Positions 12,762 through 59,809 of a DNA stretch of 64,000 nt are shown here, piece after piece. Numbering within the stretch: position 1 is the first letter of the stretch; each line of letters begins with the position of its first letter. Origin of the DNA: an uncultured bacterium (GTDB taxonomy: Bacteria > Zhuqueibacterota > QNDG01 > CAYUAG01); contig CAZETW010000004.1 of the NCBI GenBank assembly GCA_964515295.1, positions 4,994-68,993 of the forward strand, given 5' to 3'. The position numbers were made by a program, and so were the translations under genes. The notes under the pieces are model-generated. The model was not told where the DNA came from and made no database searches. It saw only the letters and a list, made by a program, of their open reading frames with translations.

Positions 12762-12854
12762 CATGAGATAAGAATTTCGATAAGGAGGAATATACATTAA
12801 CGGGGTCGGAAAAAAAATACAAACAGAAATTGGTATAAAGCGCAACATATATAA

Positions 12855-14066: not shown

Positions 14067-14073
14067 TGAAACA

Positions 14074-14476: not shown

Positions 14477-14501
14477 CAGTAATTTTGAGGTCTTTAATAA
14501 A

Positions 14502-36667: not shown

Positions 36668-36671
36668 CTTT

Positions 36672-41924: not shown

Positions 41925-42332
41925 TTAAAATTGAAGGTCCATAGCCCAGGTGGGGCAGGCAGTAATACATAATTCACAGGCCAGACATTGCGTGTCATCA
42001 AATTCAATTTTTCTGTTTACAGGATTTACTTTTAAGGCATCAGTAGGGCATACTCCCACACATAAACCGCAATGGGTGCACCTTTTTTTATCACGTACAA
42101 CATCTTTTTGAAGCGGCTTAATACTGAGTCCCAGTTTTTTCAGATAATCAAGACCGGATTTATAATCATTATTATTACCTTTTATCTCAAGAACAAGCAC
42201 TCCTTCTTCCTTTGGAGTTATAGCTGCTTTTAAAATATTAAATTCCAGATTATAATCTTTTACCAGCTGACATGCTATGGGCTGATCAACTAATGTTGGC
42301 GGAAATTTTACAACTATGCGTTTTGTAATCAT
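41925..42332 (-). CDS. NIL-domain ferredoxin with two [4Fe-4S] clusters
   Basis: 135 aa; N-terminal NIL domain, C-terminal CTHCGLCVGVCP and CLACELCITACP cluster motifs. Confidence 0.8.
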   Translation of the reverse strand: MITKRIVVKFPPTLVDQPIACQLVKDYNLEFNILKAAITPKEEGVLVLEIKGNNNDYKSGLDYLKKLGLSIKPLQKDVVRDKKRCTHCGLCVGVCPTDALKVNPVNRKIEFDDTQCLACELCITACPTWAMDLQF

Positions 42333-42381
42333 TAAGAACCCTTTTATATTTTTATAAATAAATCTGTAAATATAATTTCAT

Positions 42382-43551
42382 TTACTCTTTTTCTGAACCA
42401 GGAATGTAAGCAACCGGATTGGTTAACAAAAACTCTCCCTTTTTTATCCATTCTTTTAAGGATTCGGCGATTTCCACTGCTTTAGGATAGCTTGATAACG
42501 ATGCTGTTTTTATTCTTTTTTTATTTATTGTTATTTCTCCTGATTTTAGTTCTGCGTATGATACTGTTCCCAAAATTTTGTTTTTCCCCTGTGGATAATC
42601 ACTCCCGTAGTCCACAACCGGTGCGTAGATATCTTCATCTCTGACTGCTGTATACCTGGCCATTTGTTCGTTAATTATTGGTATGGGAATACCGATGCTC
42701 ACCATTAAGGTTGCTCCGTATCCTGACATGGACAGTCCCACAAGCCAGGAAGGTTTCATTTTCTTTAAATTACCGATGACTGCCAAAGTACCTGCCGGAA
42801 CCCGTGGGACCTGGCTTTTTGTCCTGGGTACATCGGGTTTATGCTGGGTCCCGGGCCATGCAATGTAACCTCGGTCACCTCCCAGGAAAATTTTGGTTCC
42901 GATCCCTATAGTCTGATATAGGGGATCATTCAGCAGGGGAGAGAGCTGTCCTGCTGAACAATAGGTAGCATTATTCATATTCGGTTTCAGCATACCCATA
43001 TATGTATAAATATTCTTGTCTGTACGGTTTACTGCCACGTTATAATTCTGATATGCATTCCTGGGATTAAATAACACAGCATCATTGACATTTTTAATAT
43101 TAATAATTGTTTCATATTTTCTCCCGGGATAGCAGTCAGTTCCATAAGAGTATGCACGGAGTTCTATATCTTTACCTGAAACAAAATCTTCAATAACATG
43201 TCCGCCGCCATATCTGAACTCACCGGGATGTATTTTATTTTTCGGATCATCTTCAGTAAGCTGAGAACAGCCGAGTAAAATGTCTGCTGCAGCAAATCCG
43301 GTATAAGCAGGAACATTATTCAGATAGCAAATTCCTCCGCCCAGTTTAATTTTTGGTTTTGACTGTGCAATGTTAAAATAAGCTCCACTGGAACACATGG
43401 GTCCGAATGTACCTGTAGTAACAACATCCACCTCCTCTGCTGCTGCCTTTGTACCGTTTTCCTTTACAATAGAAATCATTTCCTCAGCAGTAACAACAAC
43501 AGCTTCTTTTTTTTTGATTTTCTGGTTGATTTCTGCAATAGTCTTTGCCAT
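42382..43551 (-). CDS. DUF39 family protein (L-aspartate-semialdehyde sulfurtransferase-like; homocysteine biosynthesis), lacking CBS domains
   Basis: 389 aa; DUF39 family recalled from sequence features; paired with NIL-ferredoxin as in methanogen MA1821/MA1822. Confidence 0.6.
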   Translation of the reverse strand: MAKTIAEINQKIKKKEAVVVTAEEMISIVKENGTKAAAEEVDVVTTGTFGPMCSSGAYFNIAQSKPKIKLGGGICYLNNVPAYTGFAAADILLGCSQLTEDDPKNKIHPGEFRYGGGHVIEDFVSGKDIELRAYSYGTDCYPGRKYETIINIKNVNDAVLFNPRNAYQNYNVAVNRTDKNIYTYMGMLKPNMNNATYCSAGQLSPLLNDPLYQTIGIGTKIFLGGDRGYIAWPGTQHKPDVPRTKSQVPRVPAGTLAVIGNLKKMKPSWLVGLSMSGYGATLMVSIGIPIPIINEQMARYTAVRDEDIYAPVVDYGSDYPQGKNKILGTVSYAELKSGEITINKKRIKTASLSSYPKAVEIAESLKEWIKKGEFLLTNPVAYIPGSEKE

Positions 43552-43725
43552 GTGTTTTTCCTTTTTTAATTATACAGTCTTTGTTTCATGTATACTTGAG
43601 ATTAGTAAATTGCATAAAAATTAACTAATTAAAAATTAATTGTCAAGTGTTTAATCTTTTTGTAAATTAAAAATTCTGATAATAATAAAAAAAGAGGTTG
43701 TTTCAGTTAATTATTTATGATCCGA

Positions 43726-46700
43726 CTATAGAACCTGTTTACGCAGAGTCTGCTGCATTCTTTTAATTCTTTCAAACAGGTCTCTTCTTTCCGGTGTTCG
43801 TTTTAATACTTCATTCCATTGAAAAACAGCCTTTTTATATTCCCCCCTGTTTGCATAAATTACTCCCAGATTTTCAGCAACTGTAAGATTATCAGGCTGT
43901 ACACGACGGACTTTATCATAGTAATATTCTGATTTATCTAAATTACCGATCTTGAAATAAGCATCTCCAAGATAATGCAGGGCATTTAAATTTGTGGGAT
44001 CTTCATTCAGAACTTTTTTAATCGCAATGATAGCTTTTTCATATGATCCCTGTTTATAAAACCATTTTCCGGATTTTAAAAAGCGCTGAATCCTTTTTTC
44101 TCTGATCCTTTTTTCTTCTTCCGGGTTTGGTTTTTTTTCTTCAGGTACTCTTTTTCTTTTTTGGACATCCAGGCCTTCTGACATCTTAAGAAAACTGGTT
44201 TCTTCCTCCTCTTGTTTATCTTTACCATATTCAATGTCTTCATGTTGTTCTTCATCCAGCAATTCATCTGCTGTAAAAGAAGCTATCTCTTCTTCTACAT
44301 CCTGTTCGTCAAAGACATCAGAGTAATATATATCTTTATGATCAAGTGTTTCTTCAATTTCCTCAAGTTCATCAATTTCTTCTTCACTTTCTTGCGGAAT
44401 TTCTTTTACAATATCCTGTTTTTGTTCTTCTTTTTCTTCAAGAGATTCAGCCGGCGCTTCCTCTTCTGATTCAGGAGTGATAATGTCTTCATCTTCAGAA
44501 CTGCCTATAAAATCATTTAAAATATGATCGGTTTTTTCGTGTATTTCACTTTCATGTTCAGAAATAACTTCTTCAGGTTCTTCAGAGATAACCTCTTCGA
44601 AATCTTTTTCTTCTTCTTTGATTACTTTTCTGTCTTCATCCTCAACGTCAACAGACTGCTCAACGATTGTAGGTTTATTAACAATTTTTCCGTCCAAGGT
44701 AACAAAAGGAGTACCTGGTTTCTTTAGAGCTTTGCGTCCGCCTTTTTCAATAAAAGCCAAACGTAATTCTTTGGTATTTAATTTGCTTTTTACTAATTCA
44801 TCGTAAATTCTTTTTTCATCAATTTCTACATTATCATATTTATCACTCTTTAATTCCTCACTAATTCTTTTTGCTCCATAATCAGGATTATTTTTAATAA
44901 TGTCGATAATTTTGGCTCTGTCTTCAATGCTTATATGTTTATCTTCAATTTTTGTAATTTTCCTTCCGTCATATAATCCTTCTTTTCCCTTTTTATTGTA
45001 TTTCTTTCTGTATTTATAATATGTTGAGGTAGAAACATTTTCCCTTTTACATGCTTCTTTAACACTTAATCCTTTTTTATCAACTAATTTCATCAACCGT
45101 AATCTGTGATTAAATAATACATCCTCAGCTTTCAATTTTTCTCTTATAGCCACCAGGGTAATATCATCAGTTTGCGCAAAACCTTCGGAAAAGATGATTA
45201 TTTCATCTCTGATCTTATTTACAAATGGTTCTACATTTAAGTCTCCATATTCTCTTATGACCGAAAGAAACCGTTCATCACCAAAGCGTTCTCTGTTGTG
45301 ATTCATGGCTTCGGTAATACCATCAGTATAGACGATCAGCGAATCTTCGGGTCTTAAATGCAGAGTGTCAGATTCAATTGTTTTATTAAACAGAGAATCA
45401 TCGGGCAGTTTAATTCCTATGGGAAATCCTTTCGGATTCAGGTAGTAACTTTTTTTGGTAGATCCTCTATAGAGAATCATGGGATTATGTCCGGCACTGG
45501 CGTAATTTATAGATCTTTTCTTGGAATCAAGAATTACATAAAATATAGTAACAAACATTCCGCGTTTCATATCTTTCATGACAAAACTGTTTACTTTAGC
45601 CAGTACATCAGCAGCATTTTTATTGCCGCGCGCTTCAGTACGAAGTGCTGTTCGGATCATGGTCATTACCAGGGAACCAGGAACTCCTTTACCTGAAACG
45701 TCTGCAACCACAATACCCAGAGTATCATTATCTACCTCCACAAAATCAAAGTAATCTCCGCCCACTTCTTTTGCTGCTTCATAGTATGTAGATATCTCAT
45801 ATCCTTCAATATCCGGAAAAGAAGCCGGGAGCAGTGTTTGCTGTATATCCTGGGCAACCTGTACTTCTTTTTGCAGTCTTTCCTGTTCTGCTAAATGTTC
45901 CTGAGTTTCACGAAATTTTTCTGTAATATCATTAAAAGCTTGAGCTATTTCGCCCACTTCATCTGAATTATCGAATTCCATCACATCTTCTGCTTCTCCC
46001 CGTCCCAAAGCTTTAACCCAGTGAGATAATTTTTTAAAAGGACTCATAGTAGTATATACAAGTACAAAAACTCCTATGCAGCCGCTTACTAATATAACCA
46101 AAGATCTCCAGAAAATACTTTTTCTCTTTTGTGCAACGTTACCGTCAACAAAGCTTTTATTCAACATGATATGGACTGAGCCTAAAATATACCTGTTATC
46201 ATCAATTTCAAATTCAGCGGGTTTATTTATGTCATATACACTGCCCACACCAGCATAGTCATATACATATAAACTATCAGATTTTTTTCTGTATTTTCGT
46301 GGGAGTGAAAATGGTTTTAACAGGTTCTCCATATTCACTGCACCCTGAATACTGCCAGTGCTGTCTACAATAATTATTTCTGAAACCAGTGGAGTATGAT
46401 TATGCTGTAATTCAGCTGAAATTCTTGCTAATTCCCAGGTTTCTTCATTAGCAAGAAATTCGGCGGAATTCTGCACTACAGTTGAAGCCAGTTTTTGTCC
46501 TTCTTCAAGATAGGTGTTAAATACTTTTTTCCCTTGATAAATATAATTCCAGATCGAGAATATTAGTATTAAAAAGGTTAATATACCAGAGGCAATCAAC
46601 GAATATCGGGTTTTCATGGAAAAGCTCAACTCTGGTATGGAAAATTTTTTGGAAACATCTAATTCACGAATTTTTGTCAGACGTAATTCATTTCCCTCTA

Positions 46701-47082
46701 CTGTTTTTCTATAGTCGATCTCATCAATGACCTTGCGCATTATAAATATTCCCAAACCGCCTTTTTTTCCGATATTCACATATCTGTCAAGGTCAGGATT
46801 TTTTACTTTTCTGGGATCAAAAGTTTTCCCCTGATCAATGAGAGAAACAGTAACATTCTGTTCTCTTATTATCATCCTGACTGTTATAAAACCTTCCCAG
46901 TCACGATAAGCATGACGGATTATATTTGTACCTGCTTCATCTATGGCCATTTTAAAGGCATTGATGATGTTTTCACTGACACCATATTTTCTGCCTACTT
47001 TGGTGATAAAATCACGCATTTCGCCCAGATTTCCAATATCAGCGGGTACTTTTAATTCTTTTTTCTTTACTTTTTTAAACAT
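43726..47082 (-). CDS. Multidomain signalling protein: RsbW-like GHKL serine kinase + 2 TM with extracytoplasmic sensor + HAMP + PP2C (RsbU/SpoIIE) phosphatase + transposase-type HTH + acidic tract + C-terminal TPRs
   Basis: 1118 aa; DEAGTNIIRHAY and GGLGIFIMRKVIDEI (HATPase_c_2); two TM helices; GDYFDF...TDGITEA...DDITLVAIR (PP2C-SIG); LSVKEACKRENVSTSTYYKYRKKY and PDYGAKRISEEL (IS481/IS3 OrfA-like HTH); E/D-rich region; 3 TPRs. Confidence 0.8.
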   Translation of the reverse strand: MFKKVKKKELKVPADIGNLGEMRDFITKVGRKYGVSENIINAFKMAIDEAGTNIIRHAYRDWEGFITVRMIIREQNVTVSLIDQGKTFDPRKVKNPDLDRYVNIGKKGGLGIFIMRKVIDEIDYRKTVEGNELRLTKIRELDVSKKFSIPELSFSMKTRYSLIASGILTFLILIFSIWNYIYQGKKVFNTYLEEGQKLASTVVQNSAEFLANEETWELARISAELQHNHTPLVSEIIIVDSTGSIQGAVNMENLLKPFSLPRKYRKKSDSLYVYDYAGVGSVYDINKPAEFEIDDNRYILGSVHIMLNKSFVDGNVAQKRKSIFWRSLVILVSGCIGVFVLVYTTMSPFKKLSHWVKALGRGEAEDVMEFDNSDEVGEIAQAFNDITEKFRETQEHLAEQERLQKEVQVAQDIQQTLLPASFPDIEGYEISTYYEAAKEVGGDYFDFVEVDNDTLGIVVADVSGKGVPGSLVMTMIRTALRTEARGNKNAADVLAKVNSFVMKDMKRGMFVTIFYVILDSKKRSINYASAGHNPMILYRGSTKKSYYLNPKGFPIGIKLPDDSLFNKTIESDTLHLRPEDSLIVYTDGITEAMNHNRERFGDERFLSVIREYGDLNVEPFVNKIRDEIIIFSEGFAQTDDITLVAIREKLKAEDVLFNHRLRLMKLVDKKGLSVKEACKRENVSTSTYYKYRKKYNKKGKEGLYDGRKITKIEDKHISIEDRAKIIDIIKNNPDYGAKRISEELKSDKYDNVEIDEKRIYDELVKSKLNTKELRLAFIEKGGRKALKKPGTPFVTLDGKIVNKPTIVEQSVDVEDEDRKVIKEEEKDFEEVISEEPEEVISEHESEIHEKTDHILNDFIGSSEDEDIITPESEEEAPAESLEEKEEQKQDIVKEIPQESEEEIDELEEIEETLDHKDIYYSDVFDEQDVEEEIASFTADELLDEEQHEDIEYGKDKQEEEETSFLKMSEGLDVQKRKRVPEEKKPNPEEEKRIREKRIQRFLKSGKWFYKQGSYEKAIIAIKKVLNEDPTNLNALHYLGDAYFKIGNLDKSEYYYDKVRRVQPDNLTVAENLGVIYANRGEYKKAVFQWNEVLKRTPERRDLFERIKRMQQTLRKQVL

Positions 47083-47097
47083 AAAATTTATTTATAA

Positions 47098-49008
47098 TTA
47101 TTTATTTTTACGGAATGATTTAATTTTGTTTTTCGCTCCTTCAATTGCCTTTAATAATTTAATATTATATGGATCCAATTGCAAGGCTTCTTCCCATCGC
47201 TCTAAAGCTTTTTTATAATGACCCTGTCTGTAAAGAATAATACCCTGATTAAACATTGTTCGTACTTCTTCTGTCATTTCCTGAGTTGCACCTTTAGCAT
47301 GGGCAAGAGCAGTTCTGTAGTAATTTTTTGCCTCACCGTGATCGGGCTGAATGTCCAGGGCTTTCCTGAAATATTGTACAGCAGAAGTGTAATTTTCTTC
47401 ATCAAAATATTCTTTACCTTTCTGGAAATTAGTGGCGAAATCTATACTCTTATTAAGACTATTAATCTGGTTTACGACTCTTCTATAAATTCTTTCATTA
47501 TCCCGGGATTGTTGCTTGGCCTGATTCAGTATATCATATGCTCTGGATACTTCTCCCTGGTTTATTAATTTTTGTGCTCTAGTAAGTGATATATTGATCT
47601 GGTTTACTAAATTATCCTCAGCATTTTTTATGTATTTTTTCAGTTTGGTATTCTGGGGATCTCTTTCCAGGCCTTCTTCCCATTTTTCTATTGCTTCACG
47701 ATAATTTCTATTTTCCAGCGCTTCAATACCTTCAGTTAATTTTTTATGAACAAATGTGCTGTCTTTTCTGTTACTTACTTTTACTCTCTCCTTTTCAAGA
47801 AGCTGATTTTGCTCTCTTTCTTCGGCTAAACGCTGTCTTTCTATTGCTTCCTGTAATAATTCTTGTGCTTTTTTGTTGTCTTCATCTATTTTAAGTATTT
47901 TTGAAAATTCAACTCTGGCATTATAGAAATCACCTTTTTCAAGATAAGATCTACCGTTTTGAAGACTTTCATTGATTTCTCTTAATCTTTCAGCCTGTAC
48001 TCTCTCATTAAACCTTCTTTGTATCTCTAAACGTCGTTTTTCTTCTAAAAGTTCCTTTTGTTCCTCAATAGTCTTTCCAAAATATAATTTCAAGGAAAAC
48101 AGATTACTAACAGGGAAATATTTTGCATCTCCTATAGATTTAATACCATAATCAATTTGCAGATTTTTAAAAAGCAGCCCCACACCTGCGGTTAACTGTT
48201 CTTTCTCATATCCTCCTCGTATAAAGACCATGTTGCCTAATCCCACCTCCATTCCGAAATGATATTCATTTTCTTTGAATTCAGAATGATCAATATCAGC
48301 CATTAGTAATAAATAGTATTTATTGCTGAAAGTGAATATTTTTGCCATTCCGGCTTTAATTTTATAGGGAAGTATATCCTGCTCAGTGTCCATTTTTAAA
48401 CTCGGTTGTAAGAGATTATACATAGTACATCCGAAATGAAGATCATTTAATATGTTTCTGCTGGTTATCCCATAGTGAATTCCGGCATCCAGACCAAATC
48501 CGTTAGCAGAATACTCTCCTAACTCATCTCTGTAAGCATTACCGTTTATACCTACTGAAAACCCTTTAAAGAGTGTAAGGGCATATGATAGGGTTAATTT
48601 AGCTTTCCAGAAGTTAAATGTTCCTCTGTCAACGGGAATATTATTTACATCGTCATAAAAATTTATATCATCAACCCCAAATCGTGCTATTCCAAAACCG
48701 AATGTTCCAATATTTAAAGTCGGATGAATATATCCGATTTGATGATACTGTACTCCTTCAAATAAAGTAAAGAGAGAGAACCCAAGCTGTTTTTGCTGTA
48801 CTACATTCATGCCAGCCGGATTCCAGGCAAAGGCATAGGCATCATTTGGATATGCTGCTGCAGCGTTCCCCATACTTAATTGCTTTGCTCCGGAACCAAT
48901 TCGCAAAAACAAAGATTCTGCTCCTGCATTACCTTGTTTCTGTTGAGCAAAACATGTACCGGCTATTATAAAAATTATTAGAAAAAATTTTATAATTTTA
49001 CTGTTCAT
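47098..49008 (-). CDS. Outer-membrane FadL/PorV-like beta-barrel fused to C-terminal TPR/coiled-coil domain
   Basis: 636 aa; signal peptide; N-terminal motif GSGAKQLSMGNAAAAYPNDAYAFAWNPAGM characteristic of FadL/PorV superfamily; alternating-hydrophobic beta strands; C-terminal half helical TPR-like. Confidence 0.6.
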   Translation of the reverse strand: MNSKIIKFFLIIFIIAGTCFAQQKQGNAGAESLFLRIGSGAKQLSMGNAAAAYPNDAYAFAWNPAGMNVVQQKQLGFSLFTLFEGVQYHQIGYIHPTLNIGTFGFGIARFGVDDINFYDDVNNIPVDRGTFNFWKAKLTLSYALTLFKGFSVGINGNAYRDELGEYSANGFGLDAGIHYGITSRNILNDLHFGCTMYNLLQPSLKMDTEQDILPYKIKAGMAKIFTFSNKYYLLLMADIDHSEFKENEYHFGMEVGLGNMVFIRGGYEKEQLTAGVGLLFKNLQIDYGIKSIGDAKYFPVSNLFSLKLYFGKTIEEQKELLEEKRRLEIQRRFNERVQAERLREINESLQNGRSYLEKGDFYNARVEFSKILKIDEDNKKAQELLQEAIERQRLAEEREQNQLLEKERVKVSNRKDSTFVHKKLTEGIEALENRNYREAIEKWEEGLERDPQNTKLKKYIKNAEDNLVNQINISLTRAQKLINQGEVSRAYDILNQAKQQSRDNERIYRRVVNQINSLNKSIDFATNFQKGKEYFDEENYTSAVQYFRKALDIQPDHGEAKNYYRTALAHAKGATQEMTEEVRTMFNQGIILYRQGHYKKALERWEEALQLDPYNIKLLKAIEGAKNKIKSFRKNK

Positions 49009-52000
49009 CTATTTTACCACAGCAATTTTTGTTTTTACTATATTGTCGTCTGTATCCATAACCAATATATATACACCGTTAAGTACTGTGTTTCCATTAT
49101 CATTGGTGCCGTTCCATTCAACCTGATTACTCCCCCTTGAATGAAGTCCTTTTCTTCCTTCCGGATCAGTACTGCTGAAAGATTCTGACCAGACTAATTC
49201 TCCGATTAAATTATAAATGCTGAAATTTACATTTGTATCCTTGTCTAAATAGTAAACAATGGTTGTAGTTTTTTTACCCGGTGAACCGAATGGATTGGGA
49301 AAATTCAGTAGATATGCTTTATCGTCTGTTCCCACATCTTCACTTGATATCACCTGTTTTTGCCAGTTGCTCTTTAACTCAAATCTATCTCCTGAAGGAG
49401 ATAACACCGGCAGTGAAACATAAGGGACATACTCATCAACAGCTGTAATATAGGTGCTGTCAGGCATTTCCAGCATAAAATTCACTGTCTTTTCTGTTGT
49501 ATGCATGTCTGCAAGGAGAGCGATTTTCAGTGTATCCTGAGTCTTAATCGGGTTCATATGATCAATTAAAATGTTAACCGGATTTTCGGCAGGTATTTGT
49601 GATGAAGACAGTGTAGCCAGACAGCTGTCTTTATTATAATAATATCTTCCATTCTTCTTTATTAATTTGCATAGTTTGATTTTCTTATAAATAGAAGAAG
49701 GATTTAATGGCTGGTGAGAAAAGTCTAGAAGATTAAATTTTATTTTTGTCAGTAATACTCCATTCGCACCTGCTTCACCTCTGTTGATCATTTCAAATCC
49801 TGTTAGCCAGACATTATTTTGCCCGCTTATTACTTGACTTGAAATAGAATCCGGCTGGTCTAATTCTGTAACGGAAAGCCAGGTTCCCACTGTTGTTACC
49901 CCGATATCTGCACTTACTTTACTTGCATATGCTTCTTCAGATGTATTCTGATCCCAGGGAATTTTTGAAATATAAGCTGAGATAGTGGCAGTTTCGCCTG
50001 TGGAGTAGGGAGGTGCTTTAATCATCCAGTTTGTTTTTTCCTGTGTCGCATAATGAACCGGAGATTCTTTTGTTGTATATCCTTCAGGTAATTGTTCCAG
50101 AGTAATCATAGCAGTACCAAGAGTATCAGCTTCTCCTTTGTTTTCTATCTCTGCATACAGGATAAATTCCTGAGAGGGAGAAACAGATTTGTCATCAATG
50201 TTAAGGTTCAATGCCAGATCAGCTTTTTTTACAGTTTGTATCTCAATACCTTTCTGTTCTGCAGATATTATTACATCCTCTTGCTGAAGTGCATCGTAGC
50301 CGGATGCATTTACATAAATAGTTCTTTTATCTGTTGCTCCTTTGGGCGCTCTGATTTGCCAGGTTACTTCATTTGATATCACTTTTTTATCCAGGTTATC
50401 CGAGGTGGTATATCCGGTTGGCAATGTTATGGAGGCAGTGATATCCCTTACATAATTCCAGGTCAGACTTGCTCTTACTACAAAATACTGATCGGATGAT
50501 ACTTTTTGATTAACTGCTCCGGGCGGTGAGGCTATACCCAATGAACTGGTAAGAAAACTTTTATGAGTTATTACAGATATTTTTTCTGTCTTTTTTTCAA
50601 TTTTTGCAACTTGTCCGGTGTTTCTGGCTAAAGGAGGTTTATACAGAGTAACATTTATTGTTTGCCAGTCTGTGGCAATATTGGGCGATTTGATTTCCCA
50701 GGTTGCAGGTGAATTAAGAGTAATGGAATTATTAACTGATCCGCTGAGTGTATAGGGAGAAGGAAGAGTTATTCTTATTTTTCCGGTAGTATCAATAGCA
50801 CCAGATCCATGATTTTCCAGATGTGCGGTGAGGATAAAAACCTGGTTGGTTGTAAATTCTCCTATGGGATTGCTTAATTTCAGTTTTATTGAGAGGTCTG
50901 CCGGTTTCTGAATATAAGCAAAAGCTACAGGATCTAAAGCCGGACCAACAGGTACCTCTGAATCATCCTTTTTGGCACTTGTTATAGAAGCAGTAAATTG
51001 TTCTCCGGAAATATTTTCCACTGCTGATGCGGTAAGGTAAAATATTACAGAATCTCTTTGGGATGGTGACAGAGAAAGTATGGTTAAATCTGAATTTTCT
51101 ATATTTGATATTTCGCTTTCCAAATGAACATTAATATTCTTGACTGCATGACCTAATCCGTTTTCTACTGATACAATAACTTTAAATTCCTGGTTTGTAT
51201 CCAAATACGCATTGCCTCCCTCGGTTGTATTATAAGCATCGATCACAGTTGATACAATTCTAAAGGCCGGATTGGACTGCACTGATATTAAGGCTGATGC
51301 ATTATTCTGTTTTATGTTTCCGGTGTTTTTTTCAACTCCCTGGATATTGGTTTTAACTTCTACCTCTCCGCCGTATAGTCCGGTTAGTTTAACTTTGTAT
51401 ACTAATGTATCCCTTGTTCCGCTTTTCAGGCTGATATTTTTGGTGGTACATTCTGTAATATAATCTGTGAGTTTTAGATCTTCATGCCAGAAACTGATAT
51501 TTGATTTCAGGGTATCTATCTGAATTTCTGCATAATAATCTATAGGGGCCTGACTTTGCCCGTTAGCAAGTACAACTTTAACAAACCAGGGTTCAGTCTG
51601 ACCTCCCATTACTTTATTTGTGGAAGTGATAATTTTTTCAATGGACAGAGTTCCTGGCTGTTGTACATGTACTTTGGTTGTGTCATCAACAGGATTTTTA
51701 CTTGTCAGAGAATCATTCTTATTATCAGTCCATCCGCCGCCGCTTACTGTAAAGATTTCATTGTACAGATAGGTTTGAAAGGCATTACCTGTTACTGTGA
51801 TAACAGAAGTTTCACCGCCCTCAAGAGGATCAACAGGGATACGGGTAGGGAAATTAAACCAGGGATGTTCTGAAGTTAAATGTAATCCGATGTCATGTAA
51901 TCCATCTCCGCCTGTATTGGCTATTTTAATGTTCATGTCAAATTCCTGATTGATATTAACATAGGGTGCATTGGGAGCCATATTTGTAAGTTCGAGAATT

Positions 52001-55000
52001 TTTAATTCCGCTTCTTCTTCAATAATTACTGTTCCCCATCCTGCATTATCAGTGTTGTCAGAAACCTGTAATTCTGTATTTATTTCAGTACCTGAAACAG
52101 AGGCGTTTATTTTACATTCTCCAGTGCTGTTTTCTCCTGTATGAATAACCTGATAGTTCAGACTGTCGATAGTTTCACCTTCAAGAATCCATCCTCCTTT
52201 AGCAAGAGAATCCGGTCGTATTACTGCCCAATTATCTCCAATACTGAAAGAAAGAGAAGTGTTTACAGCAGCCGAAACAGAATCAATCAACACACTGCTT
52301 TCACCCCGGTTACTCAGTACTACTGCTATTGACCAGTTTGTGTCCTGAGCAACTGTTACTTCATTCTGGGAGGTGATGATTTCATTGACAATCAAATCAG
52401 CCGGCGTCTGTACATTAACTGAAGTCCAGGCTTGATCAGTTAATTGTTCACCAGCGATAGTGGAAGTATATAAAAATCCCTGTATGAGTGCTGAGCCTTT
52501 ATCCGCACCGGTACTGTCTATGGTTACAACTAATGTATCTGTAGAATAACCGGATAATATTTTTGTACCACTATTCTTAAATGTATCAGGAATTGATATT
52601 TGATAATCATTTTTCAGTATCCCGTCAGTTTTTATATTTAACCCGATACTGTCAAGAGTAACATTGTTGCTGCTCAGGTTTTCCACAGTCATAATAAGGA
52701 ACCAGTCTTTGTTTTGATTTGCAGTTATATGCTGTACAAGAGTAGAGTAATCATTTTTTACCGGTTTAAAATCCAAAATTCTCAGCCCCGGTGCATTTAT
52801 AACATTAAAACTATTAGAAACTCCACTGGGTGCAGGTTCCTCTGCACCTGTTTCTGTAACTGTAATAACATTACCTGAGTATTGGGTGTTCACTGTAACG
52901 CTTCCATTCCATATACCGTTAACAAAATTCGAACTTTTTTGCGGTTGTATAGTAGCGGAAGAATCAGTGATATCAACAGTACCGGTAAAATTGGATTTGA
53001 CATTATCATTTTCATCATAGGTAGTGATATTTAACGGAAACGGCTGACCTGTTACCTGAGTATTGATCAAGCCTATTTCAAAATAAGACACTTGTCCGGG
53101 AATAACTATAATGGAACCGGTATGAGCTGATATATCAGTTTGTGGTTTATGTGTCTTTATATTGCCGCTTCCCGGTTTACTGGGGATATAGGTGATGTCA
53201 GATTTATTTGAGATGTTAACTGCAGGAGTTAATCCCTGGGAACTCCAATCTACAATTTCAGTTCCTCTGAAGTTTCCATAGCCGTCATATCCTACAGAAT
53301 AAAGATCCAGACTTTCTCCTACACTTAAGGTGTCGTTAATTATTTCTTCTCCTTCATGAATAGGAACATTTTTTATCTTAAGCTGAGACAGAGTTCCTGG
53401 ATTTACTAAAATATCACTCACAACAGAAGAAATATCGTTTACCTGGCCTTTCAGCGCAACTCCGCTTTCTGCTTTTACTAATATCTGATTAGCCTGCCCT
53501 GAACCGTTTATCACCTGAATATCATTGAAAATCGGAGACGACCCATTGGGAGAATTCCCTCCCAGATTATTACAGGTTACAGTAACCATACCTGACCAAT
53601 TATTCTGATATTTATCCTGTGCATCAGTTAGTGTTAAGGGAAATGGTATTCCTGCCGTTTGAATTGAGCCGCAATTCAAGGCAAATGTGTCTATGGAAGC
53701 ATACGTGACCGTAATACTGCTGCTGGTCTTACTTATTTCTCCATCAGTAACAGTTACGGTTTGTTGGGGGGAATTATATAAAATAAAAGATGAACCGAAG
53801 AATACTTTTTGTCCGTTATTCCATCCGGTTCCGTTATCAACCGGCAGTGTTGCCGGATATGGTTCTTTATCTGAAGAACTCCAGATAATAATTCCTTCAT
53901 AATCGGTTTTTTTATTTTTATAGCTGTCAAATGCAGTTACCGTAACCCCGTAGGAGAAAGGCTGTCCGGCACGCCTGGTTTCAGGTAATCCTTCTATAGT
54001 AAAATCACCAAGTTCGCCAGGGAGGACCAGGATTGAATGACTGGTTCTGCTTACTGTCCCGTCAATTACTTTGATTGTCTGGGAGGGTGCATTAAATAAA
54101 AGAAAAGAAGAACCACTAAACGTTTTGCTTCCATTTACCCAGCCTGTTCTGTCATCTGTAGGTAATGCTGCAGGGTAAGGAGTGCCGTCAGAAGAATTCC
54201 AGATAACAATTCCGGAATAATTAGTTTTTAAATTATTATATTCATCAAAAGCAGAGACGGTAACATTACTATTGAATTGCTGACCTGCAATAGTACTGGA
54301 TGGAACTCCGCTTAACTCAAATCTGTCAAGATCTGTTGCATATACAGTAATCGGATCTGATGTTTCGATGACGCTCCCGTCCTGAACTGTAACAGTTTGT
54401 TCAGTGGTATTGTAGAGTTTAAATGAAGTTCCCGGAAAAGTCTTTTTTCCCCCACTCCATCCGGTTCCGTCATCTTCCGGAAGATCAGCAGGATATGGAA
54501 TACCGTCACTGGATACCCAGTCCACTGTACCCTGGTAGTCATTTTTGACATTTCCATAAAAATCATAAGCAGTAATTTCAATATCATTGTTAAAAACAGA
54601 ACCTGCTTCAACGCTGCCGGGGATTCCGCTTATCTTAAAACTATCAAGCGCTGCCGGTTCAACTGTTACATTATATGTAGTACTGGTTATAGAGCCATCT
54701 GATACAGAAAGCCATTGAGTACCTGCTGTACATAATTTGAATAGGGCACCACTGAATTTTTTTGATCCGTTATTCCATTCACTGCCGTCATCAGTGGGAA
54801 GTAAGACTTTTTCGTTAGTATCAGATGTATGCCAGGTGACAGTACCGTTATATGTATCTTCAATTTGCCCGTATTGATTATAGGCAGTCACTTCAATACT
54901 GTCAGGGAACTGCTGGCCTGCTTGAACAGTAGCTGGTACATTTGTTAGCTCCAATCTGGCTAAAGTCCCGGCATTTGTTTCAGGTGCTTTTAAAGGGTGA

Positions 55001-55098
55001 TTAACTTGTGCCCCCAACGTTTTATTGACATAAAAATTAAGTGTCACCCCCGAAAGGAATACTGCGGTCAAAAAGATTTTTTTCAAGGATATATTCAT
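49009..55098 (-). CDS. Giant secreted repeat protein with T9SS (Por) C-terminal sorting domain
   Basis: 2029 aa; signal peptide; at least 4.5 tandem ~105-aa repeats near N-terminus; C-terminal ~90 aa NFPNPFGSPG...IYNLIGELV...GVYILVM...KIAVVK matches T9SS CTD. Confidence 0.85.
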   Translation of the reverse strand: MNISLKKIFLTAVFLSGVTLNFYVNKTLGAQVNHPLKAPETNAGTLARLELTNVPATVQAGQQFPDSIEVTAYNQYGQIEDTYNGTVTWHTSDTNEKVLLPTDDGSEWNNGSKKFSGALFKLCTAGTQWLSVSDGSITSTTYNVTVEPAALDSFKISGIPGSVEAGSVFNNDIEITAYDFYGNVKNDYQGTVDWVSSDGIPYPADLPEDDGTGWSGGKKTFPGTSFKLYNTTEQTVTVQDGSVIETSDPITVYATDLDRFELSGVPSSTIAGQQFNSNVTVSAFDEYNNLKTNYSGIVIWNSSDGTPYPAALPTDDRTGWVNGSKTFSGSSFLLFNAPSQTIKVIDGTVSRTSHSILVLPGELGDFTIEGLPETRRAGQPFSYGVTVTAFDSYKNKKTDYEGIIIWSSSDKEPYPATLPVDNGTGWNNGQKVFFGSSFILYNSPQQTVTVTDGEISKTSSSITVTYASIDTFALNCGSIQTAGIPFPLTLTDAQDKYQNNWSGMVTVTCNNLGGNSPNGSSPIFNDIQVINGSGQANQILVKAESGVALKGQVNDISSVVSDILVNPGTLSQLKIKNVPIHEGEEIINDTLSVGESLDLYSVGYDGYGNFRGTEIVDWSSQGLTPAVNISNKSDITYIPSKPGSGNIKTHKPQTDISAHTGSIIVIPGQVSYFEIGLINTQVTGQPFPLNITTYDENDNVKSNFTGTVDITDSSATIQPQKSSNFVNGIWNGSVTVNTQYSGNVITVTETGAEEPAPSGVSNSFNVINAPGLRILDFKPVKNDYSTLVQHITANQNKDWFLIMTVENLSSNNVTLDSIGLNIKTDGILKNDYQISIPDTFKNSGTKILSGYSTDTLVVTIDSTGADKGSALIQGFLYTSTIAGEQLTDQAWTSVNVQTPADLIVNEIITSQNEVTVAQDTNWSIAVVLSNRGESSVLIDSVSAAVNTSLSFSIGDNWAVIRPDSLAKGGWILEGETIDSLNYQVIHTGENSTGECKINASVSGTEINTELQVSDNTDNAGWGTVIIEEEAELKILELTNMAPNAPYVNINQEFDMNIKIANTGGDGLHDIGLHLTSEHPWFNFPTRIPVDPLEGGETSVITVTGNAFQTYLYNEIFTVSGGGWTDNKNDSLTSKNPVDDTTKVHVQQPGTLSIEKIITSTNKVMGGQTEPWFVKVVLANGQSQAPIDYYAEIQIDTLKSNISFWHEDLKLTDYITECTTKNISLKSGTRDTLVYKVKLTGLYGGEVEVKTNIQGVEKNTGNIKQNNASALISVQSNPAFRIVSTVIDAYNTTEGGNAYLDTNQEFKVIVSVENGLGHAVKNINVHLESEISNIENSDLTILSLSPSQRDSVIFYLTASAVENISGEQFTASITSAKKDDSEVPVGPALDPVAFAYIQKPADLSIKLKLSNPIGEFTTNQVFILTAHLENHGSGAIDTTGKIRITLPSPYTLSGSVNNSITLNSPATWEIKSPNIATDWQTINVTLYKPPLARNTGQVAKIEKKTEKISVITHKSFLTSSLGIASPPGAVNQKVSSDQYFVVRASLTWNYVRDITASITLPTGYTTSDNLDKKVISNEVTWQIRAPKGATDKRTIYVNASGYDALQQEDVIISAEQKGIEIQTVKKADLALNLNIDDKSVSPSQEFILYAEIENKGEADTLGTAMITLEQLPEGYTTKESPVHYATQEKTNWMIKAPPYSTGETATISAYISKIPWDQNTSEEAYASKVSADIGVTTVGTWLSVTELDQPDSISSQVISGQNNVWLTGFEMINRGEAGANGVLLTKIKFNLLDFSHQPLNPSSIYKKIKLCKLIKKNGRYYYNKDSCLATLSSSQIPAENPVNILIDHMNPIKTQDTLKIALLADMHTTEKTVNFMLEMPDSTYITAVDEYVPYVSLPVLSPSGDRFELKSNWQKQVISSEDVGTDDKAYLLNFPNPFGSPGKKTTTIVYYLDKDTNVNFSIYNLIGELVWSESFSSTDPEGRKGLHSRGSNQVEWNGTNDNGNTVLNGVYILVMDTDDNIVKTKIAVVK
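53570..54966 (-). repeat. Tandem ~310-bp coding repeats (~105-aa units) inside the giant T9SS cargo gene
   Basis: Protein-level repeats LxxFxIxGxPxxxxAGQxF...VTAxDxYGNxKxxYxGxVxWxSSD...LPxDxGTGWxxGxKxFxGxSFxLxNxxxQTVTVxDG...TSxxITV observed four to five times. Confidence 0.7.
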
Positions 55099-55414
55099 AA
55101 ACTATTTTTTTTCATAGACCTATACTTTACATATTACTCCGTATTATATTTGGCTTTTTTAATACGGGCAAATAATATACCATAATTACAAAATTAATTT
55201 ATAATCTTATAATTCCATAAAAAACAAAAGTTTGTAAAAATGGTGATTTTTAAGTTAATAAAAATATTATTTAAATGGTATTATACTGGATGATTTTCAA
55301 CCACTTACTGAAAAAGGGGAATAGTTAATTTGTTCAGTGAAGTCAGACTTTATTTATATACTATATAAAGAGGGGGATTTTATATAGTGTATTGTTTAAA
55401 AAAATTTATTTTTA

Positions 55415-58777: not shown

Positions 58778-58837
58778 GATATAATTCCTCCCTTAAATTC
58801 TCAATAATGTAACCCCTCTTCCTCATTCCTAAAAATT

Positions 58838-59788: not shown

Positions 59789-59809
59789 TTAAATATTTTT
59801 TTATGACCT

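What the first reader, a model, noticed from the sequence alone, without database searches (positions are those of the whole stretch)
43726..55098. Compact three-gene minus-strand operon: giant T9SS cargo, then PorV/FadL-like barrel-TPR, then kinase/phosphatase/HTH signalling protein
The three ORFs are separated by only 0 and 15 nt (49008/49009 and 47082/47098), implying co-transcription from a promoter in the 55099-55414 gap. This couples a 2029-aa surface or secreted repeat protein carrying a T9SS C-terminal sorting signal to a dedicated FadL/PorV-like outer-membrane barrel, the family that shuttles CTD cargo in Bacteroidota T9SS. It also couples them to an inner-membrane sensor with opposing kinase and phosphatase outputs and TPR interaction domains. 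A cargo, shuttle and envelope-spanning regulator in one operon would be an unusual self-regulating adhesin or surface-layer export unit.
Basis: inference. Interest (0 to 1): 0.8.

Follow-up and report, generated by a model that had tools for sequence, protein, structure and literature searches.

The report
Giant surface protein, carrier barrel, sensor
Three tightly packed genes encode a giant surface protein with a secretion tail, an outer-membrane barrel likely to carry or anchor it, and a membrane sensor with opposing kinase and phosphatase activities; the trio recurs in many uncultured bacteria but has not been described.

Summary
Three minus-strand ORFs (2029, 636 and 1118 aa) lie 0 and 15 nt apart.

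- **Giant.** It ends in a conserved ~100-aa T9SS-type sorting domain. Scanned alone, this scores 31.4 bits on TIGR04183 (cut-off 23).
- **Middle protein.** It belongs to the PorV/PorQ family (116 bits, cut-off 90). The best solved fold match is chain 8gl6_F of the F. johnsoniae T9SS–RemA-CTD complex, which I take to be PorV. A ~320-aa helical/TPR extension, probably periplasmic, follows the barrel.
- **Third protein.** It is not a histidine kinase. It fuses an RsbW-type serine kinase, two TM helices around a Cache-like loop, HAMP, a PP2C phosphatase, an HTH, an acidic linker and TPRs.

The order giant → barrel-TPR → kinase/phosphatase holds in every one of 25 distinct loci where the contig reaches far enough. 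These include KSB1-type, Calditrichota and GN15 MAGs and one locus with unfused components.

Most relatives add a STAS(-HTH) substrate gene and a 375-aa TPR gene. This window's clade lacks both at this locus.

Whether the genome has a T9SS core could not be tested.

Most likely reading: a cargo with its own carrier or anchor, coupled to a partner-switching envelope sensor. This is a new variant of known kinds.

The parts
55099..55414 (-). AT-rich 316-nt intergenic gap between pta and the giant gene; presumed promoter region. In most relatives a 375-aa TPR gene sits here.
   Evidence: Sequence read. Promoter-like matches are not above chance. TPR375 is present in relatives and absent here.
49009..55098 (-). 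Giant secreted or surface protein, 2029 aa. It has an N-terminal signal-like segment, then about 7 Ig-like repeats of ~106 aa (aa ~43-770), then two further repeat types (aa ~770-1400 and ~1376-1760), then the C-terminal sorting domain.
   Evidence: internal repeats. Relatives show only faint or weak Big_1 and CARDB Pfam hits. No PDB sequence match.
49012..49311 (-). C-terminal sorting domain (CTD) of the giant, aa 1930-2029: PNPF..., GELVW, W(D/N)G.N..G..VLNGVY, K.KIAVVK.
   Evidence: This is the best-conserved part of the giant across 19 orthologues. Scanned alone: TIGR04183 31.4 bits (cut-off 23), with 17 of 18 orthologues matching; FlgD_ig 28.7 (cut-off 27); CHU_C 26.1 and Por_Secre_tail 21.0 (both cut-off 27). 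Scanned within the whole protein: TIGR04183 only 18.9 bits.
47098..49008 (-). Outer-membrane PorV/PorQ-family barrel fused to a helical/TPR domain, 636 aa, with a signal peptide at aa 1-21.
   Evidence: NF033709 PorV/PorQ family 116 bits (cut-off 90). AF2 model with pLDDT 77. Foldseek top hit 8gl6_F, E 1.1e-13, then FadL and TodX.
48073..48936 (-). Beta-barrel part, aa ~25-312. It includes the conserved N-terminal segment and about 14-15 strands between aa 73 and 310.
47104..48069 (-). Long helices (aa 314-358 and 379-432) followed by TPR repeats to aa 635. Inferred to be periplasmic.
   Evidence: TPR_2 78.8 bits and other TPR families. Secondary structure from the AF2 model. The periplasmic location is inferred from general beta-barrel topology.
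43726..47082 (-). Bifunctional partner-switching sensor, 1118 aa.
46672..47049 (-). RsbW/SpoIIAB-type serine kinase domain (HATPase_c_2), aa 12-137. The N-box (E49, N53, H57), G1 (D83, G85) and G2 (G105-G111) residues are invariant in 24 orthologues.
   Evidence: HATPase_c_2 92 bits. RsbW models. PDB RsbW 6m36. Invariant columns.
46120..46536 (-). Periplasmic loop, aa 183-321, between TM helices 158-182 and 322-349. The predicted fold is Cache/PDC-like and the sequence is poorly conserved.
   Evidence: TM segments. AF2 shows a helix followed by a 6-7-strand sheet. The unfused homologue in L033 has sCache_3_2 at 45.9 bits and aligns with aa 231-647. One orthologue gives a weak sCache_3_2 hit.
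45916..46062 (-). HAMP domain, aa 341-389.
   Evidence: 26.3 bits in the whole protein and 28.0 bits on the excised segment, cut-off 25.
45142..45729 (-). PP2C/SpoIIE phosphatase domain, aa 452-647. The metal-binding residues D443, D461, D587 and D639/D640 are invariant.
   Evidence: SpoIIE 165.4 bits. Invariant columns. Fold and sequence matches to Rv1364c, RssB and SiaA PP2C.
44758..45108 (-). Homeodomain-like HTH region, aa ~659-775. It is homologous to the C-terminal HTH of the STAS proteins of relatives.
   Evidence: HTH_23 35.2 bits, HTH_32, HTH_28. 35-39% identity to the STAS C-termini.
44128..44739 (-). Acidic linker predicted to be disordered, aa 782-985 (36% D+E measured over aa 780-990).
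43753..44094 (-). C-terminal TPR domain, aa 997-1110, inferred to be cytoplasmic.
   Evidence: TPR_2 57.1 bits. AF2 pLDDT of about 90 in this region.

Best explanation
This is a conserved envelope module, so far undescribed, with three roles.

1. **Cargo.** The giant repeat protein is exported through Sec. It is then handled through its C-terminal T9SS-type sorting domain.
2. **Carrier or anchor.** The PorV/PorQ-family barrel encoded immediately downstream is the giant's own carrier or anchor. It would bind the CTD at the cell surface, as PorV binds type A CTDs, PorQ holds the retained CTD of PorZ, and PorP/SprF proteins hold type B cargo encoded next to them. Its ~320-aa helical/TPR tail hangs into the periplasm.
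3. **Sensor.** The third protein sits in the inner membrane. A Cache-like periplasmic loop feeds through HAMP into a PP2C phosphatase, and an RsbW-type serine kinase is fused at the N-terminus. Together the two activities set the phosphorylation state of a STAS protein. In most relatives that STAS protein is encoded next door and carries its own HTH.

The output is probably a change in expression, or in export and assembly, of the surface protein in response to envelope or surface state.

**Shown:** the gene arrangement, the domain identities, the conserved catalytic residues and the conserved gene order.
**Inferred:** CTD-barrel binding, contact between the TPR tail and the sensor loop, the identity of the signal and of the output, and T9SS dependence.

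In this window's clade the STAS-HTH and TPR375 genes are not at the locus. The substrate must therefore be encoded elsewhere, or this part of the circuit has been lost.
For: - **Arrangement.** ORFs and junctions are as described.
- **Sorting domain.** The CTD is the best-conserved part of the giant. TIGR04183 scores 31.4 bits on the isolated domain (cut-off 23), and 17 of 18 orthologues match. It also matches the CTD regions of the PorU model (18 of 18) and the PorZ model (15 of 18).
- **Barrel.** PorV/PorQ family 116 bits (cut-off 90). The AF2 barrel's best PDB match is 8gl6_F, a 367-residue chain of the F. johnsoniae T9SS–RemA-CTD complex that I take to be PorV (the output does not name the chain), at E 1.1e-13 and TM 0.65; FadL follows.
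- **Conserved order.** Giant, then barrel-TPR, then kinase/phosphatase in 24 of 24 assessable loci on each side, including Calditrichota (29% identity), GN15 (26%) and more distant lineages, with different flanking genes.
- **The cargo-barrel pair is general.** Five of five short PorV/PorQ-like barrels in other FCB MAGs are directly preceded by a protein with the same CTD.
- **Unfused version.** L033 has sCache_3_2-HAMP-SpoIIE, then HATPase_c_2, then STAS, directly after the same cargo-barrel pair. This shows that the fused protein combines an RsbU-like and an RsbW-like part.
- **Active sites and substrate.** Kinase and PP2C catalytic residues are invariant in 24 orthologues. The STAS proteins of relatives pass TIGR00377 (58.6 and 67.7 bits, cut-off 53.45) and carry the invariant segment DYISSAGWG.
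- **Literature.** PorV binds the CTD with its extracellular loops (PMC10994853). Cognate PorV-like barrels hold retained CTDs, and type B cargo genes cluster with their PorP/SprF genes (PMC10202324). SypE is a kinase-REC-PP2C protein acting on the STAS protein SypA (PMC3610818).
Against: - No T9SS core gene (SprA/Sov, PorK/L/M/N, PorU, PorZ) lies in the 64-kb window, which is otherwise housekeeping. I could not search the rest of the genome.
- The Caldithrix abyssi genome paper reports that Bacteroidetes-type gliding machinery was not found (PMC5317091).
- Scanned as a whole protein, the giant is below the TIGR04183 cut-off (18.9 bits against 23). Pfam does not separate FlgD_ig, CHU_C and Por_Secre_tail for this domain.
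- The barrel is far below the equivalog cut-offs for PorV (45.8 against 250), PorQ (69 against 220) and PorV2 (83.4 against 325).
- No STAS gene lies in the window.
- No sigma factor is adjacent in any locus examined.
- No physical interaction was tested.
- A 1176-aa barrel-TPR variant (L035) lacks both kinds of neighbour.
Confidence: 0.6

Rival explanations
1. T9SS-independent surface signalling. The C-terminal domain is only an Ig-like (FlgD_ig-type) fold that plugs the giant into its FadL-like barrel. The barrel-TPR passes the state of the surface protein across the periplasm to the Cache-HAMP sensor. This would be a cell-surface signalling pathway whose output is the STAS-HTH protein, and no SprA-type translocon would be involved.
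For: - FlgD_ig scores as well as the T9SS models on this domain.
- No T9SS core gene lies in the window.
- Gliding-type machinery was reported absent from Caldithrix abyssi.
- The sensor, the barrel-TPR and the giant are always linked.
- The barrel carries long periplasmic helices of 45 and 54 residues.
- The HTH is present in both the sensor and the STAS protein, or in neither.
Against: - On NCBIfam the domain matches TIGR04183 and the CTDs of PorU and PorZ, and the barrel's best fold match is a chain of the T9SS translocon complex that I take to be PorV.
- A 2000-5000-aa protein needs some outer-membrane translocon, and a barrel of about 14 strands is too small to pass it.
- T9SS has been reported or suspected in several other FCB phyla (PMC11285876).
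Confidence: 0.2
2. The barrel-TPR is the organism's general PorV or PorQ orthologue, a housekeeping T9SS component that serves many cargoes. Its position next to one giant cargo would then be inherited synteny rather than a dedicated partnership.
For: - The locus lies in a housekeeping region and is syntenic with rsmD-coaD-pta across the KSB1-type relatives.
- The family-level assignment is PorV/PorQ.
Against: - The equivalog cut-offs for PorV, PorQ and PorV2 are all missed by a wide margin.
- The adjacency persists across phylum-level lineages whose flanking genes differ.
- Short paralogous PorV-like barrels in other bacteria are each likewise paired with a CTD protein, which points to one-to-one partnerships.
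Confidence: 0.12
3. The kinase/phosphatase gene is functionally unrelated to the cargo-barrel pair. It would be a general stress partner-switching regulator that happens to lie downstream.
For: - No interaction was tested.
- Partner-switching systems usually control sigma factors or other cytoplasmic targets.
- The STAS partner is absent from this window.
Against: - The gene is immediately downstream in 24 of 24 assessable loci, with gaps of 3-101 nt.
- The link holds even where the system is split into three genes (L033) and where the HTH and TPR parts are missing (GN15).
- Short PorV-like pairs without a fused TPR lack it, so it travels with the TPR-bearing barrel.
Confidence: 0.08

Closest known systems
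T9SS carrier/anchor barrels and their cargo: PorV with type A CTDs, PorQ with PorZ, PorP/SprF with adjacent type B cargo such as SprB-SprF
   Same: - The cargo ends in a ~100-aa beta-sandwich-type sorting domain.
- A PorV-like, FadL-fold outer-membrane barrel is encoded right after its cargo, as with type B cargo and PorP/SprF.
- The best fold match of the barrel is a chain of the substrate-bound translocon complex that I take to be PorV.
   Different: - The barrel belongs to the PorV/PorQ family rather than PorP/SprF, and no PorP/SprF model was listed for it.
- It misses the PorV, PorQ and PorV2 equivalog cut-offs.
- It carries a ~320-aa coiled-helix/TPR extension that canonical PorV, PorQ and PorP proteins, as I know them, do not have.
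- It occurs in KSB1-type, Calditrichota and GN15 lineages, where I found no report of a T9SS.
- It is always linked to a partner-switching sensor.
Bifunctional partner-switching regulators: SypE/SypA (Vibrio fischeri), HsbR/HsbA (P. aeruginosa), Rv1364c (M. tuberculosis)
   Same: - An RsbW-type serine kinase and a PP2C phosphatase lie in one polypeptide and act, by inference, on a single-domain STAS protein.
- As in SypE, the kinase is N-terminal and the phosphatase C-terminal.
- The top fold match is the RsbU-RsbW part of Rv1364c.
   Different: - The central receiver domain of SypE is replaced by TM, Cache-like loop, TM and HAMP, so the input comes from the periplasm.
- An HTH, an acidic linker and TPRs are added.
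- The STAS partner of relatives carries an HTH.
- The genomic partners are a giant CTD protein and an outer-membrane barrel, not polysaccharide genes.
- HsbR details are from my own knowledge and were not checked here.
SiaABCD (P. aeruginosa) and membrane RsbU-type phosphatases
   Same: The segment from the membrane anchor through HAMP to the PP2C domain matches the SiaA model (60.5 bits, aa 328-647) and the SiaA PP2C structure 6k4e. Like SiaA/SiaB/SiaC, the system is a phosphatase, kinase and STAS-type switch tied to cell-surface behaviour.
   Different: - The score is far below the SiaA equivalog cut-off of 700.
- The kinase is fused rather than separate.
- No diguanylate cyclase gene was seen next to the module in any locus examined.
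TPR-plus-barrel outer-membrane exporters: Slam, PgaA, BcsC, PelB
   Same: A periplasmic TPR domain is fused to an outer-membrane beta-barrel involved in putting a large product on the cell surface. There is a weak TPR_Slam hit (27.9 bits, cut-off 35.2).
   Different: - The domain order is reversed, with the barrel first and the TPRs last.
- The barrel is of the FadL/PorV type, not DUF560 or a porin of the PgaA or BcsC type.
- All hits to these families are to the TPR part only and are below cut-off.

Membership tests
T9SS cargo with type A C-terminal sorting domain | C-terminal domain matching TIGR04183 or PF18962 above the curated cut-off | tested here: inconclusive
   The isolated last 100 aa score 31.4 bits on TIGR04183 (cut-off 23), and 17 of 18 orthologues match. 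The whole protein scores only 18.9 bits. Pfam PF18962 scores 21.0 bits, below its cut-off of 27.
T9SS cargo with type A C-terminal sorting domain | N-terminal Sec signal peptide | tested here: inconclusive
   The sequence MNISLKKIFLTAVFLSGVTLNF... looks like a signal peptide. No signal-peptide predictor was available, and my hydropathy threshold did not flag it.
T9SS cargo with type A C-terminal sorting domain | The genome encodes the T9SS core (SprA/Sov, PorK/L/M/N, PorU, PorV, PorZ) | not testable with these tools
   Only 64 kb of the genome is available and none of these genes is in it. A 52-aa query for a PorU-like neighbour in L033 found nothing.
T9SS cargo with type B C-terminal sorting domain | C-terminal domain matching CHU_C (PF13585) or TIGR04131, with a PorP/SprF partner encoded next to it | tested here: not met
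   CHU_C scores 26.1 bits, just under its cut-off of 27, and 13 of 18 orthologues give weak hits. No type B NCBIfam model was listed. The adjacent barrel belongs to the PorV/PorQ family, not PorP/SprF.
PorV/PorQ family (NF033709) | Score above the family cut-off | tested here: met
   116 bits against a cut-off of 90, covering aa 34-291.
PorV/PorQ family (NF033709) | FadL-like outer-membrane beta-barrel fold closest to PorV | tested here: met
   AF2 model with pLDDT 77 and about 14-15 strands. Foldseek against PDB: 8gl6_F, a 367-residue chain of the T9SS substrate complex that I take to be PorV, at E 1.1e-13 and TM 0.65; FadL and TodX follow.
PorV, PorQ or PorV2 orthologue (equivalog models) | Score above the equivalog cut-off | tested here: not met
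   PorV 45.8 against 250, PorQ 69 against 220, PorV2 83.4 against 325.
Partner-switching system (RsbU/RsbV/RsbW type) | RsbW/SpoIIAB-type serine kinase domain with intact ATP-binding motifs | tested here: met
   HATPase_c_2 92 bits (cut-off 27.4). The N-box, G1 and G2 residues are invariant in 24 orthologues. PDB RsbW 6m36 matches at E 3.4e-11.
Partner-switching system (RsbU/RsbV/RsbW type) | PP2C (SpoIIE/RsbU-type) phosphatase with metal-binding aspartates | tested here: met
   SpoIIE 165.4 bits. D443, D461, D587 and D639/D640 are invariant. Fold matches to Rv1364c, RssB and SiaA.
Partner-switching system (RsbU/RsbV/RsbW type) | STAS-domain substrate (anti-sigma antagonist type) with a phosphorylatable serine | tested here: not met
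   No STAS gene lies in the 64-kb window (tblastn). One is present directly downstream in 17 related loci, where it passes TIGR00377 (58.6 and 67.7 bits against 53.45) and carries the invariant segment DYISSAGWG. It may be encoded elsewhere in this genome.
Partner-switching system (RsbU/RsbV/RsbW type) | A sigma factor or other defined target of the kinase/anti-sigma domain | tested here: inconclusive
   No sigma factor gene was seen next to the module in any locus examined. The HTH on the STAS protein suggests a direct transcriptional output, but this is an inference.
SypE-type bifunctional regulator | N-terminal RsbW-like kinase, central receiver domain, C-terminal PP2C | tested here: not met
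   The kinase and PP2C domains are in the same order as in SypE. No receiver domain is present; TM, Cache-like loop, TM and HAMP take its place.
Two-component sensor histidine kinase | HisKA/DHp phospho-acceptor domain next to the ATPase domain | tested here: not met
   No HisKA-type domain was listed. The ATPase domain is of the HATPase_c_2 type and sits N-terminal to the membrane segments. Hits to histidine-kinase models cover only the TM and HAMP region and are far below cut-off.
Operon (co-transcribed unit) | Same strand, minimal spacing, no internal terminator, conserved order | tested here: met
   Gaps of 0 and 15 nt. No terminator at either junction. The order is conserved in 25 loci. 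Transcription itself was not tested.

The most novel reading that the evidence does not exclude
The module is a new kind of trans-envelope surface-sensing pathway. A giant surface protein is held by its CTD in a PorV-like barrel. The barrel's long periplasmic helix/TPR stalk touches the Cache-like loop of an inner-membrane protein that fuses kinase and phosphatase. That protein sets the phosphorylation of a STAS-HTH transcription factor. The cell would thereby read the presence, load or integrity of its main surface protein and adjust gene expression without a sigma factor. It would be core equipment of several uncultured FCB phyla, possibly in lineages that lack a canonical T9SS.
Probability: 0.3. 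Interest if true: 0.8.

Novelty: new variant of a known kind. Interest (0 to 1): 0.62.

Why it matters
Each component belongs to a known family: a T9SS-type CTD, the PorV/PorQ barrels, and RsbW/PP2C/STAS partner switching. The combination appears to be undescribed, and it has four features of interest.

- A PorV-family barrel carries a large periplasmic TPR stalk.
- That barrel is always encoded right after one giant CTD protein.
- It is always followed by a membrane-bound partner-switching sensor.
- The trio sits in the core chromosome of at least three phylum-level lineages.

If the coupling is functional, it has three consequences.

- The "one cargo, one cognate carrier" rule, known so far for type B cargo, would extend to the PorV/PorQ branch.
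- It would be, as far as I know, the first link between partner-switching signalling and T9SS-type surface display.
- Calditrichota include a cultured species, so the idea of how bacteria monitor a major surface protein across the envelope could be tested experimentally.

It also gives annotators a reason to stop labelling these genes only as "TPR protein" and "SpoIIE family phosphatase".

Tried and rejected
- **Promoter and terminator scans.** Sigma-70 promoter and intrinsic-terminator scans across 43300-55700 were not above shuffled expectation, so they say nothing either way about transcription.
- **Solved relatives of the giant.** phmmer of the giant against PDB sequences found no match. 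A first self-BLAST printed nothing, so I repeated it with chopped windows.
- **The missing genes.** tblastn found neither a STAS nor a TPR375 gene in the window. The only hit was the sensor's own HTH.
- **T9SS core.**
  - Literature searches for KSB1 or Calditrichota together with type IX secretion returned nothing. The Zhuqueibacterota paper does not mention secretion.
  - I tried to recover the Peptidase_C25/FlgD_ig (PorU-like?) neighbour in L033 from its 52-aa C-terminal fragment.
- **Provenance.** An exact-sequence cluster look-up gave no names or accessions.
- **Histidine kinase.** Rejected, because there is no HisKA domain and the ATPase is of the RsbW type.
- **Slam, PgaA or BcsC-type exporter.** Rejected as a membership, because only the TPRs match, below cut-off, and the domain order is reversed.
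- **TPR-TPR contact between the two smaller proteins.** Rejected on topology, because one set is periplasmic and the other cytoplasmic.
- **Mobile or accessory island.** Rejected, because the surroundings are housekeeping genes (MnmE, YidC, LptFG, DnaG, RecJ, SecA, TopA, RNase R, DnaJ/GrpE) and the locus is syntenic in relatives.
- **Long barrel-TPR variant.** A 1176-aa variant (L035) lacks the cargo and sensor neighbours, so the rule applies to the ~600-680-aa form.

Full report

Yes. The ORF table lists 49009-55098 (-) 2029 aa, 47098-49008 (-) 636 aa and 43726-47082 (-) 1118 aa, all starting with ATG. At the first junction the giant's TAG is followed directly by the ATG of the next gene. At the second, TAA is followed by 15 nt and then ATG. 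Upstream lies a 316-nt AT-rich gap after pta.

Consensus promoter and terminator scans were no better than shuffled sequence and showed no terminator at either junction. They neither support nor contradict co-transcription. All genes from about 63.6 kb down to 41.9 kb are on the minus strand, so the true transcript limits are unknown.

**2. What the three proteins are**

*Giant (2029 aa).* Whole-protein scans gave only sub-threshold hits at the C-terminus: FlgD_ig 20.6 bits (cut-off 27) and TIGR04183 18.9 bits (cut-off 23). Internally it is built from repeats:
- about seven ~106-aa units in aa 43-770, up to 54% identical to each other;
- a second repeat type in aa ~770-1400;
- a third repeat type in aa ~1376-1760.

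Relatives carry faint or weak Big_1 and CARDB hits. No solved structure matches by sequence.

The last ~100 aa are the best-conserved part of the protein in all 19 orthologues aligned, with the motifs PNPF, GELVW, WDG.N..G..VLNGVY and K.KIAVVK. Scanned as an isolated domain:
- TIGR04183, the T9SS type A sorting domain, scores 31.4 bits (cut-off 23), and 17 of 18 orthologues match.
- The CTD portions of the PorU model (18 of 18) and the PorZ model (15 of 18) also match.
- Pfam is less decisive: FlgD_ig 28.7 (cut-off 27), CHU_C, the type B signal, 26.1 (cut-off 27), and Por_Secre_tail 21.0 (cut-off 27).

I therefore call it a divergent T9SS-type CTD whose class is not settled.

*Middle protein (636 aa).*
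- It passes the NCBIfam PorV/PorQ family model (116 bits, cut-off 90, aa 34-291).
- It is far below the equivalog cut-offs for PorV, PorQ and "PorV2".
- TPR models cover aa ~350-625.
- An AF2 model built on 19 orthologues (pLDDT 77) shows a barrel of about 14-15 strands in aa 73-310. Two very long helices follow (314-358 and 379-432), then TPR-like helices to the end.
- The best solved match is chain 8gl6_F of the F. johnsoniae T9SS–RemA-CTD complex, at E 1.1e-13 and TM 0.65 on the target. It is a 367-residue chain that I take to be the PorV carrier; the output does not name the chain. FadL and TodX follow.
- By general beta-barrel topology the C-terminal TPR domain should be periplasmic. This is an inference.

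*Third protein (1118 aa).*
- aa 12-137: HATPase_c_2 (92 bits), with RsbW and SpoIIAB models as the best NCBIfam matches and RsbW 6m36 in PDB.
- aa 158-182 and 322-349: two TM helices.
- aa 341-389: HAMP.
- aa 452-647: SpoIIE/PP2C (165 bits).
- aa ~659-775: homeodomain-like HTH.
- aa 782-985: a disordered stretch with 36% D+E.
- aa 997-1110: TPRs.

In 24 orthologues the kinase N-box, G1 and G2 residues and the PP2C metal-binding aspartates are invariant, while the periplasmic loop is poorly conserved. AF2 predicts a long helix plus a 6-7-strand sheet for that loop. An unfused homologue has sCache_3_2 at this position (45.9 bits), and it aligns with aa 231-647 of the window protein. The top fold matches are the RsbU-RsbW part of M. 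tuberculosis Rv1364c, the RssB PP2C and the SiaA PP2C.

This is a membrane-bound, bifunctional partner-switching enzyme, not a histidine kinase.

**3. Context and conservation**

The window is ordinary chromosome. It carries MnmE, YidC, LptF/G, MutS2, DnaG, RNase P RNA, RecJ, SecA, TopA, RNase R, PreP, HcyBio, pta, coaD, rsmD, DnaJ and GrpE. It carries no T9SS core gene.

The exact proteins occur only on metagenome contigs. Some homologues are labelled candidate division KSB1.

A protein search found 21 full-length barrel-TPR orthologues at 37-100% identity. A genome-collection scan added Calditrichota (29%) and GN15 (26%). A profile search of 1.84 billion cluster representatives found 978 proteins at E<=1e-30, and most of the top 150 are barrel-plus-TPR proteins of 540-690 aa.

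I examined 25 distinct loci.
- **Giant upstream.** A CTD-bearing giant of 921 to more than 5000 aa lies directly upstream in all 24 loci where the contig reaches that far.
- **Sensor downstream.** The kinase/phosphatase lies directly downstream in all 24 loci where the contig reaches that far.
- **Spacing.** Gaps are mostly 0-106 nt.
- **Flanks.** The outer flanks differ: aconitase/IDH, BioY, HcyBio and others.
- **Conservation gradient.** It runs sensor (43-57% identity), then barrel-TPR (26-44%), then giant (23-47%), with the giant's CTD far better kept than the rest of it.

Three further findings sharpen the picture.

1. Seventeen relatives encode a STAS protein directly after the sensor. 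It is highly conserved (50-73%), passes the anti-sigma-antagonist model, and carries the invariant segment DYISSAGWG. Most of those examined have a C-terminal HTH homologous to the sensor's own HTH; the short STAS proteins of GN15 (150 aa) and L033 (129 aa) do not. Ten relatives encode a 375-aa TPR protein just before the giant, or downstream of the module in GN15. The window and its closest relatives (L007, L008) lack both genes at this locus, and neither is anywhere in the 64 kb.
2. In GN15 the sensor stops after the PP2C domain and the STAS protein has no HTH. The HTH is thus present in both or in neither.
3. In a more distant lineage (L033) the same cargo-barrel-TPR pair is followed by three separate genes: sCache_3_2-HAMP-SpoIIE, HATPase_c_2 and STAS. 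A Peptidase_C25/FlgD_ig protein lies two genes upstream. This shows that the fused protein is RsbU-like plus RsbW-like, and that the link to the cargo pair predates the fusion.

The cargo-barrel pair on its own is more general still. Five of five short (276-347 aa) PorV/PorQ-like barrels in other FCB MAGs, one of them labelled Cytophagia, are directly preceded by a protein with the same CTD. None has a sensor gene next to it.

One 1176-aa barrel-TPR variant has neither neighbour.

**4. How it most likely works**

*Shown:* the domain identities, the intact catalytic motifs, and the strict and ancient gene linkage.

*Inferred:*
- The giant crosses the inner membrane through Sec and reaches the surface through its CTD.
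- The barrel encoded downstream is its cognate carrier or anchor. PorV binds CTDs with its extracellular loops (PMC10994853). Cognate PorV-like barrels such as PorQ and PorP/SprF keep their partners' CTDs and anchor them, and type B cargo genes cluster with their PorP/SprF genes (PMC10202324). The resemblance of this CTD to the retained CTDs of PorU and PorZ fits an uncleaved, barrel-bound state.
- The barrel's periplasmic helix/TPR stalk is well placed to contact the sensor's Cache-like loop.
- The sensor then shifts the balance between its kinase and its phosphatase on the STAS(-HTH) protein. This changes transcription, or export and assembly.

The closest mechanistic precedents are SypE/SypA (kinase-REC-PP2C acting on a STAS protein to control a biofilm matrix; PMC3610818) and SiaA/B/C.

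The sensor's C-terminal TPRs are cytoplasmic.

**5. Main uncertainties**

- I could not test whether this genome, or KSB1 and Calditrichota genomes in general, encode a T9SS translocon and motor. Reviews list several other FCB phyla as possible T9SS holders (PMC11285876). The Caldithrix abyssi genome paper says that Bacteroidetes-type gliding machinery was not found. I found no paper linking these phyla to T9SS.
- The STAS substrate is missing from this window.
- No interaction or transcript was tested.

**6. Comparison and novelty**

Each part belongs to a known family. The combination is not described in anything I could find: a PorV/PorQ-family barrel with a large periplasmic TPR extension, paired one-to-one with a giant CTD protein, and always followed by a partner-switching sensor.

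I rate it a new variant of known kinds, of moderate to high interest. It is real, ancient and widespread in uncultured FCB lineages, and it makes a testable proposal for trans-envelope monitoring of a surface protein. Its function rests on inference.

Noticed in passing
window 57500-61558 (-): A type IV pilus/T2SS-like trio lies just upstream of rsmD-coaD-pta. It consists of a PilM-like 316-aa protein (58838-59788), a 425-aa single-TM protein with a weak GspM/T2SSM_b-like C-terminus (57500-58777), and a 582-aa N-terminally anchored protein with no family hit (59810-61558). The 425-aa gene keeps this position in relatives L007, L008, L009 and L024.
   Followed up: partly
window 14073-14481 (+): A bacterial RNase P RNA, class A (259 bits), overlaps the first ~58 nt of the longest RecJ ORF (14424-16193). 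The real RecJ start must therefore lie further downstream.
   Followed up: no
window 12688-12762 (+) and 36596-36668 (+): tRNA-Met (CAT) and tRNA-Asn (GTT) genes.
   Followed up: no
window 36791-39873 (+): A 606-aa all-TPR protein is followed, with stop and start sharing a base, by a 420-aa ORF that has no Pfam or NCBIfam hit. This looks like a coupled pair of unknown function.
   Followed up: no
L003:15535-16194 and the equivalent genes in 16 other loci; window 44758-45108 (-): The STAS proteins of relatives carry a C-terminal HTH_21/32-like domain that is 35-39% identical to the HTH inside the sensor. In the GN15 locus L023 both proteins lack it. A STAS domain fused to an HTH suggests a transcription factor controlled directly by phosphorylation, without a sigma factor.
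   Followed up: partly
L025-L029 (other FCB MAGs, one labelled Cytophagia): Short PorV/PorQ-like barrels (276-347 aa, best model "PorV2") are each directly preceded by a protein ending in the same type of CTD. L026, L027 and L029 also have a 1211-1219-aa TPR protein a few genes downstream. L025 has a canonical Por_Secre_tail protein (46.7 bits) nearby.
   Followed up: partly
L033:1-15903: A distant version of the module has separate sCache_3_2-HAMP-SpoIIE, HATPase_c_2 and STAS genes, followed by a HisKA histidine kinase gene. A 1538-aa Propeptide_C25/Peptidase_C25/FlgD_ig protein (gingipain- or PorU-like) lies two genes upstream of the giant. I could not retrieve its full sequence.
   Followed up: partly
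L003:1695-2822 (TPR375 gene of relatives): The conserved 375-aa TPR protein encoded before the giant in relatives has no obvious signal peptide. Its N-terminus gives a weak, sub-threshold match to the RomY N-terminal domain (28 bits, cut-off 50).
   Followed up: no
L035:10001-13531: A 1176-aa variant with an N-terminal PorV-like barrel and many more TPRs sits in a different context, with no CTD cargo upstream and no partner-switching genes.
   Followed up: partly
window 41925-43551 (-): Directly downstream of the module lie an HcyBio homocysteine-synthesis gene (502 bits) and a NIL-ferredoxin gene. This pair replaces the STAS-aconitase-IDH genes found at this position in relatives.
   Followed up: no
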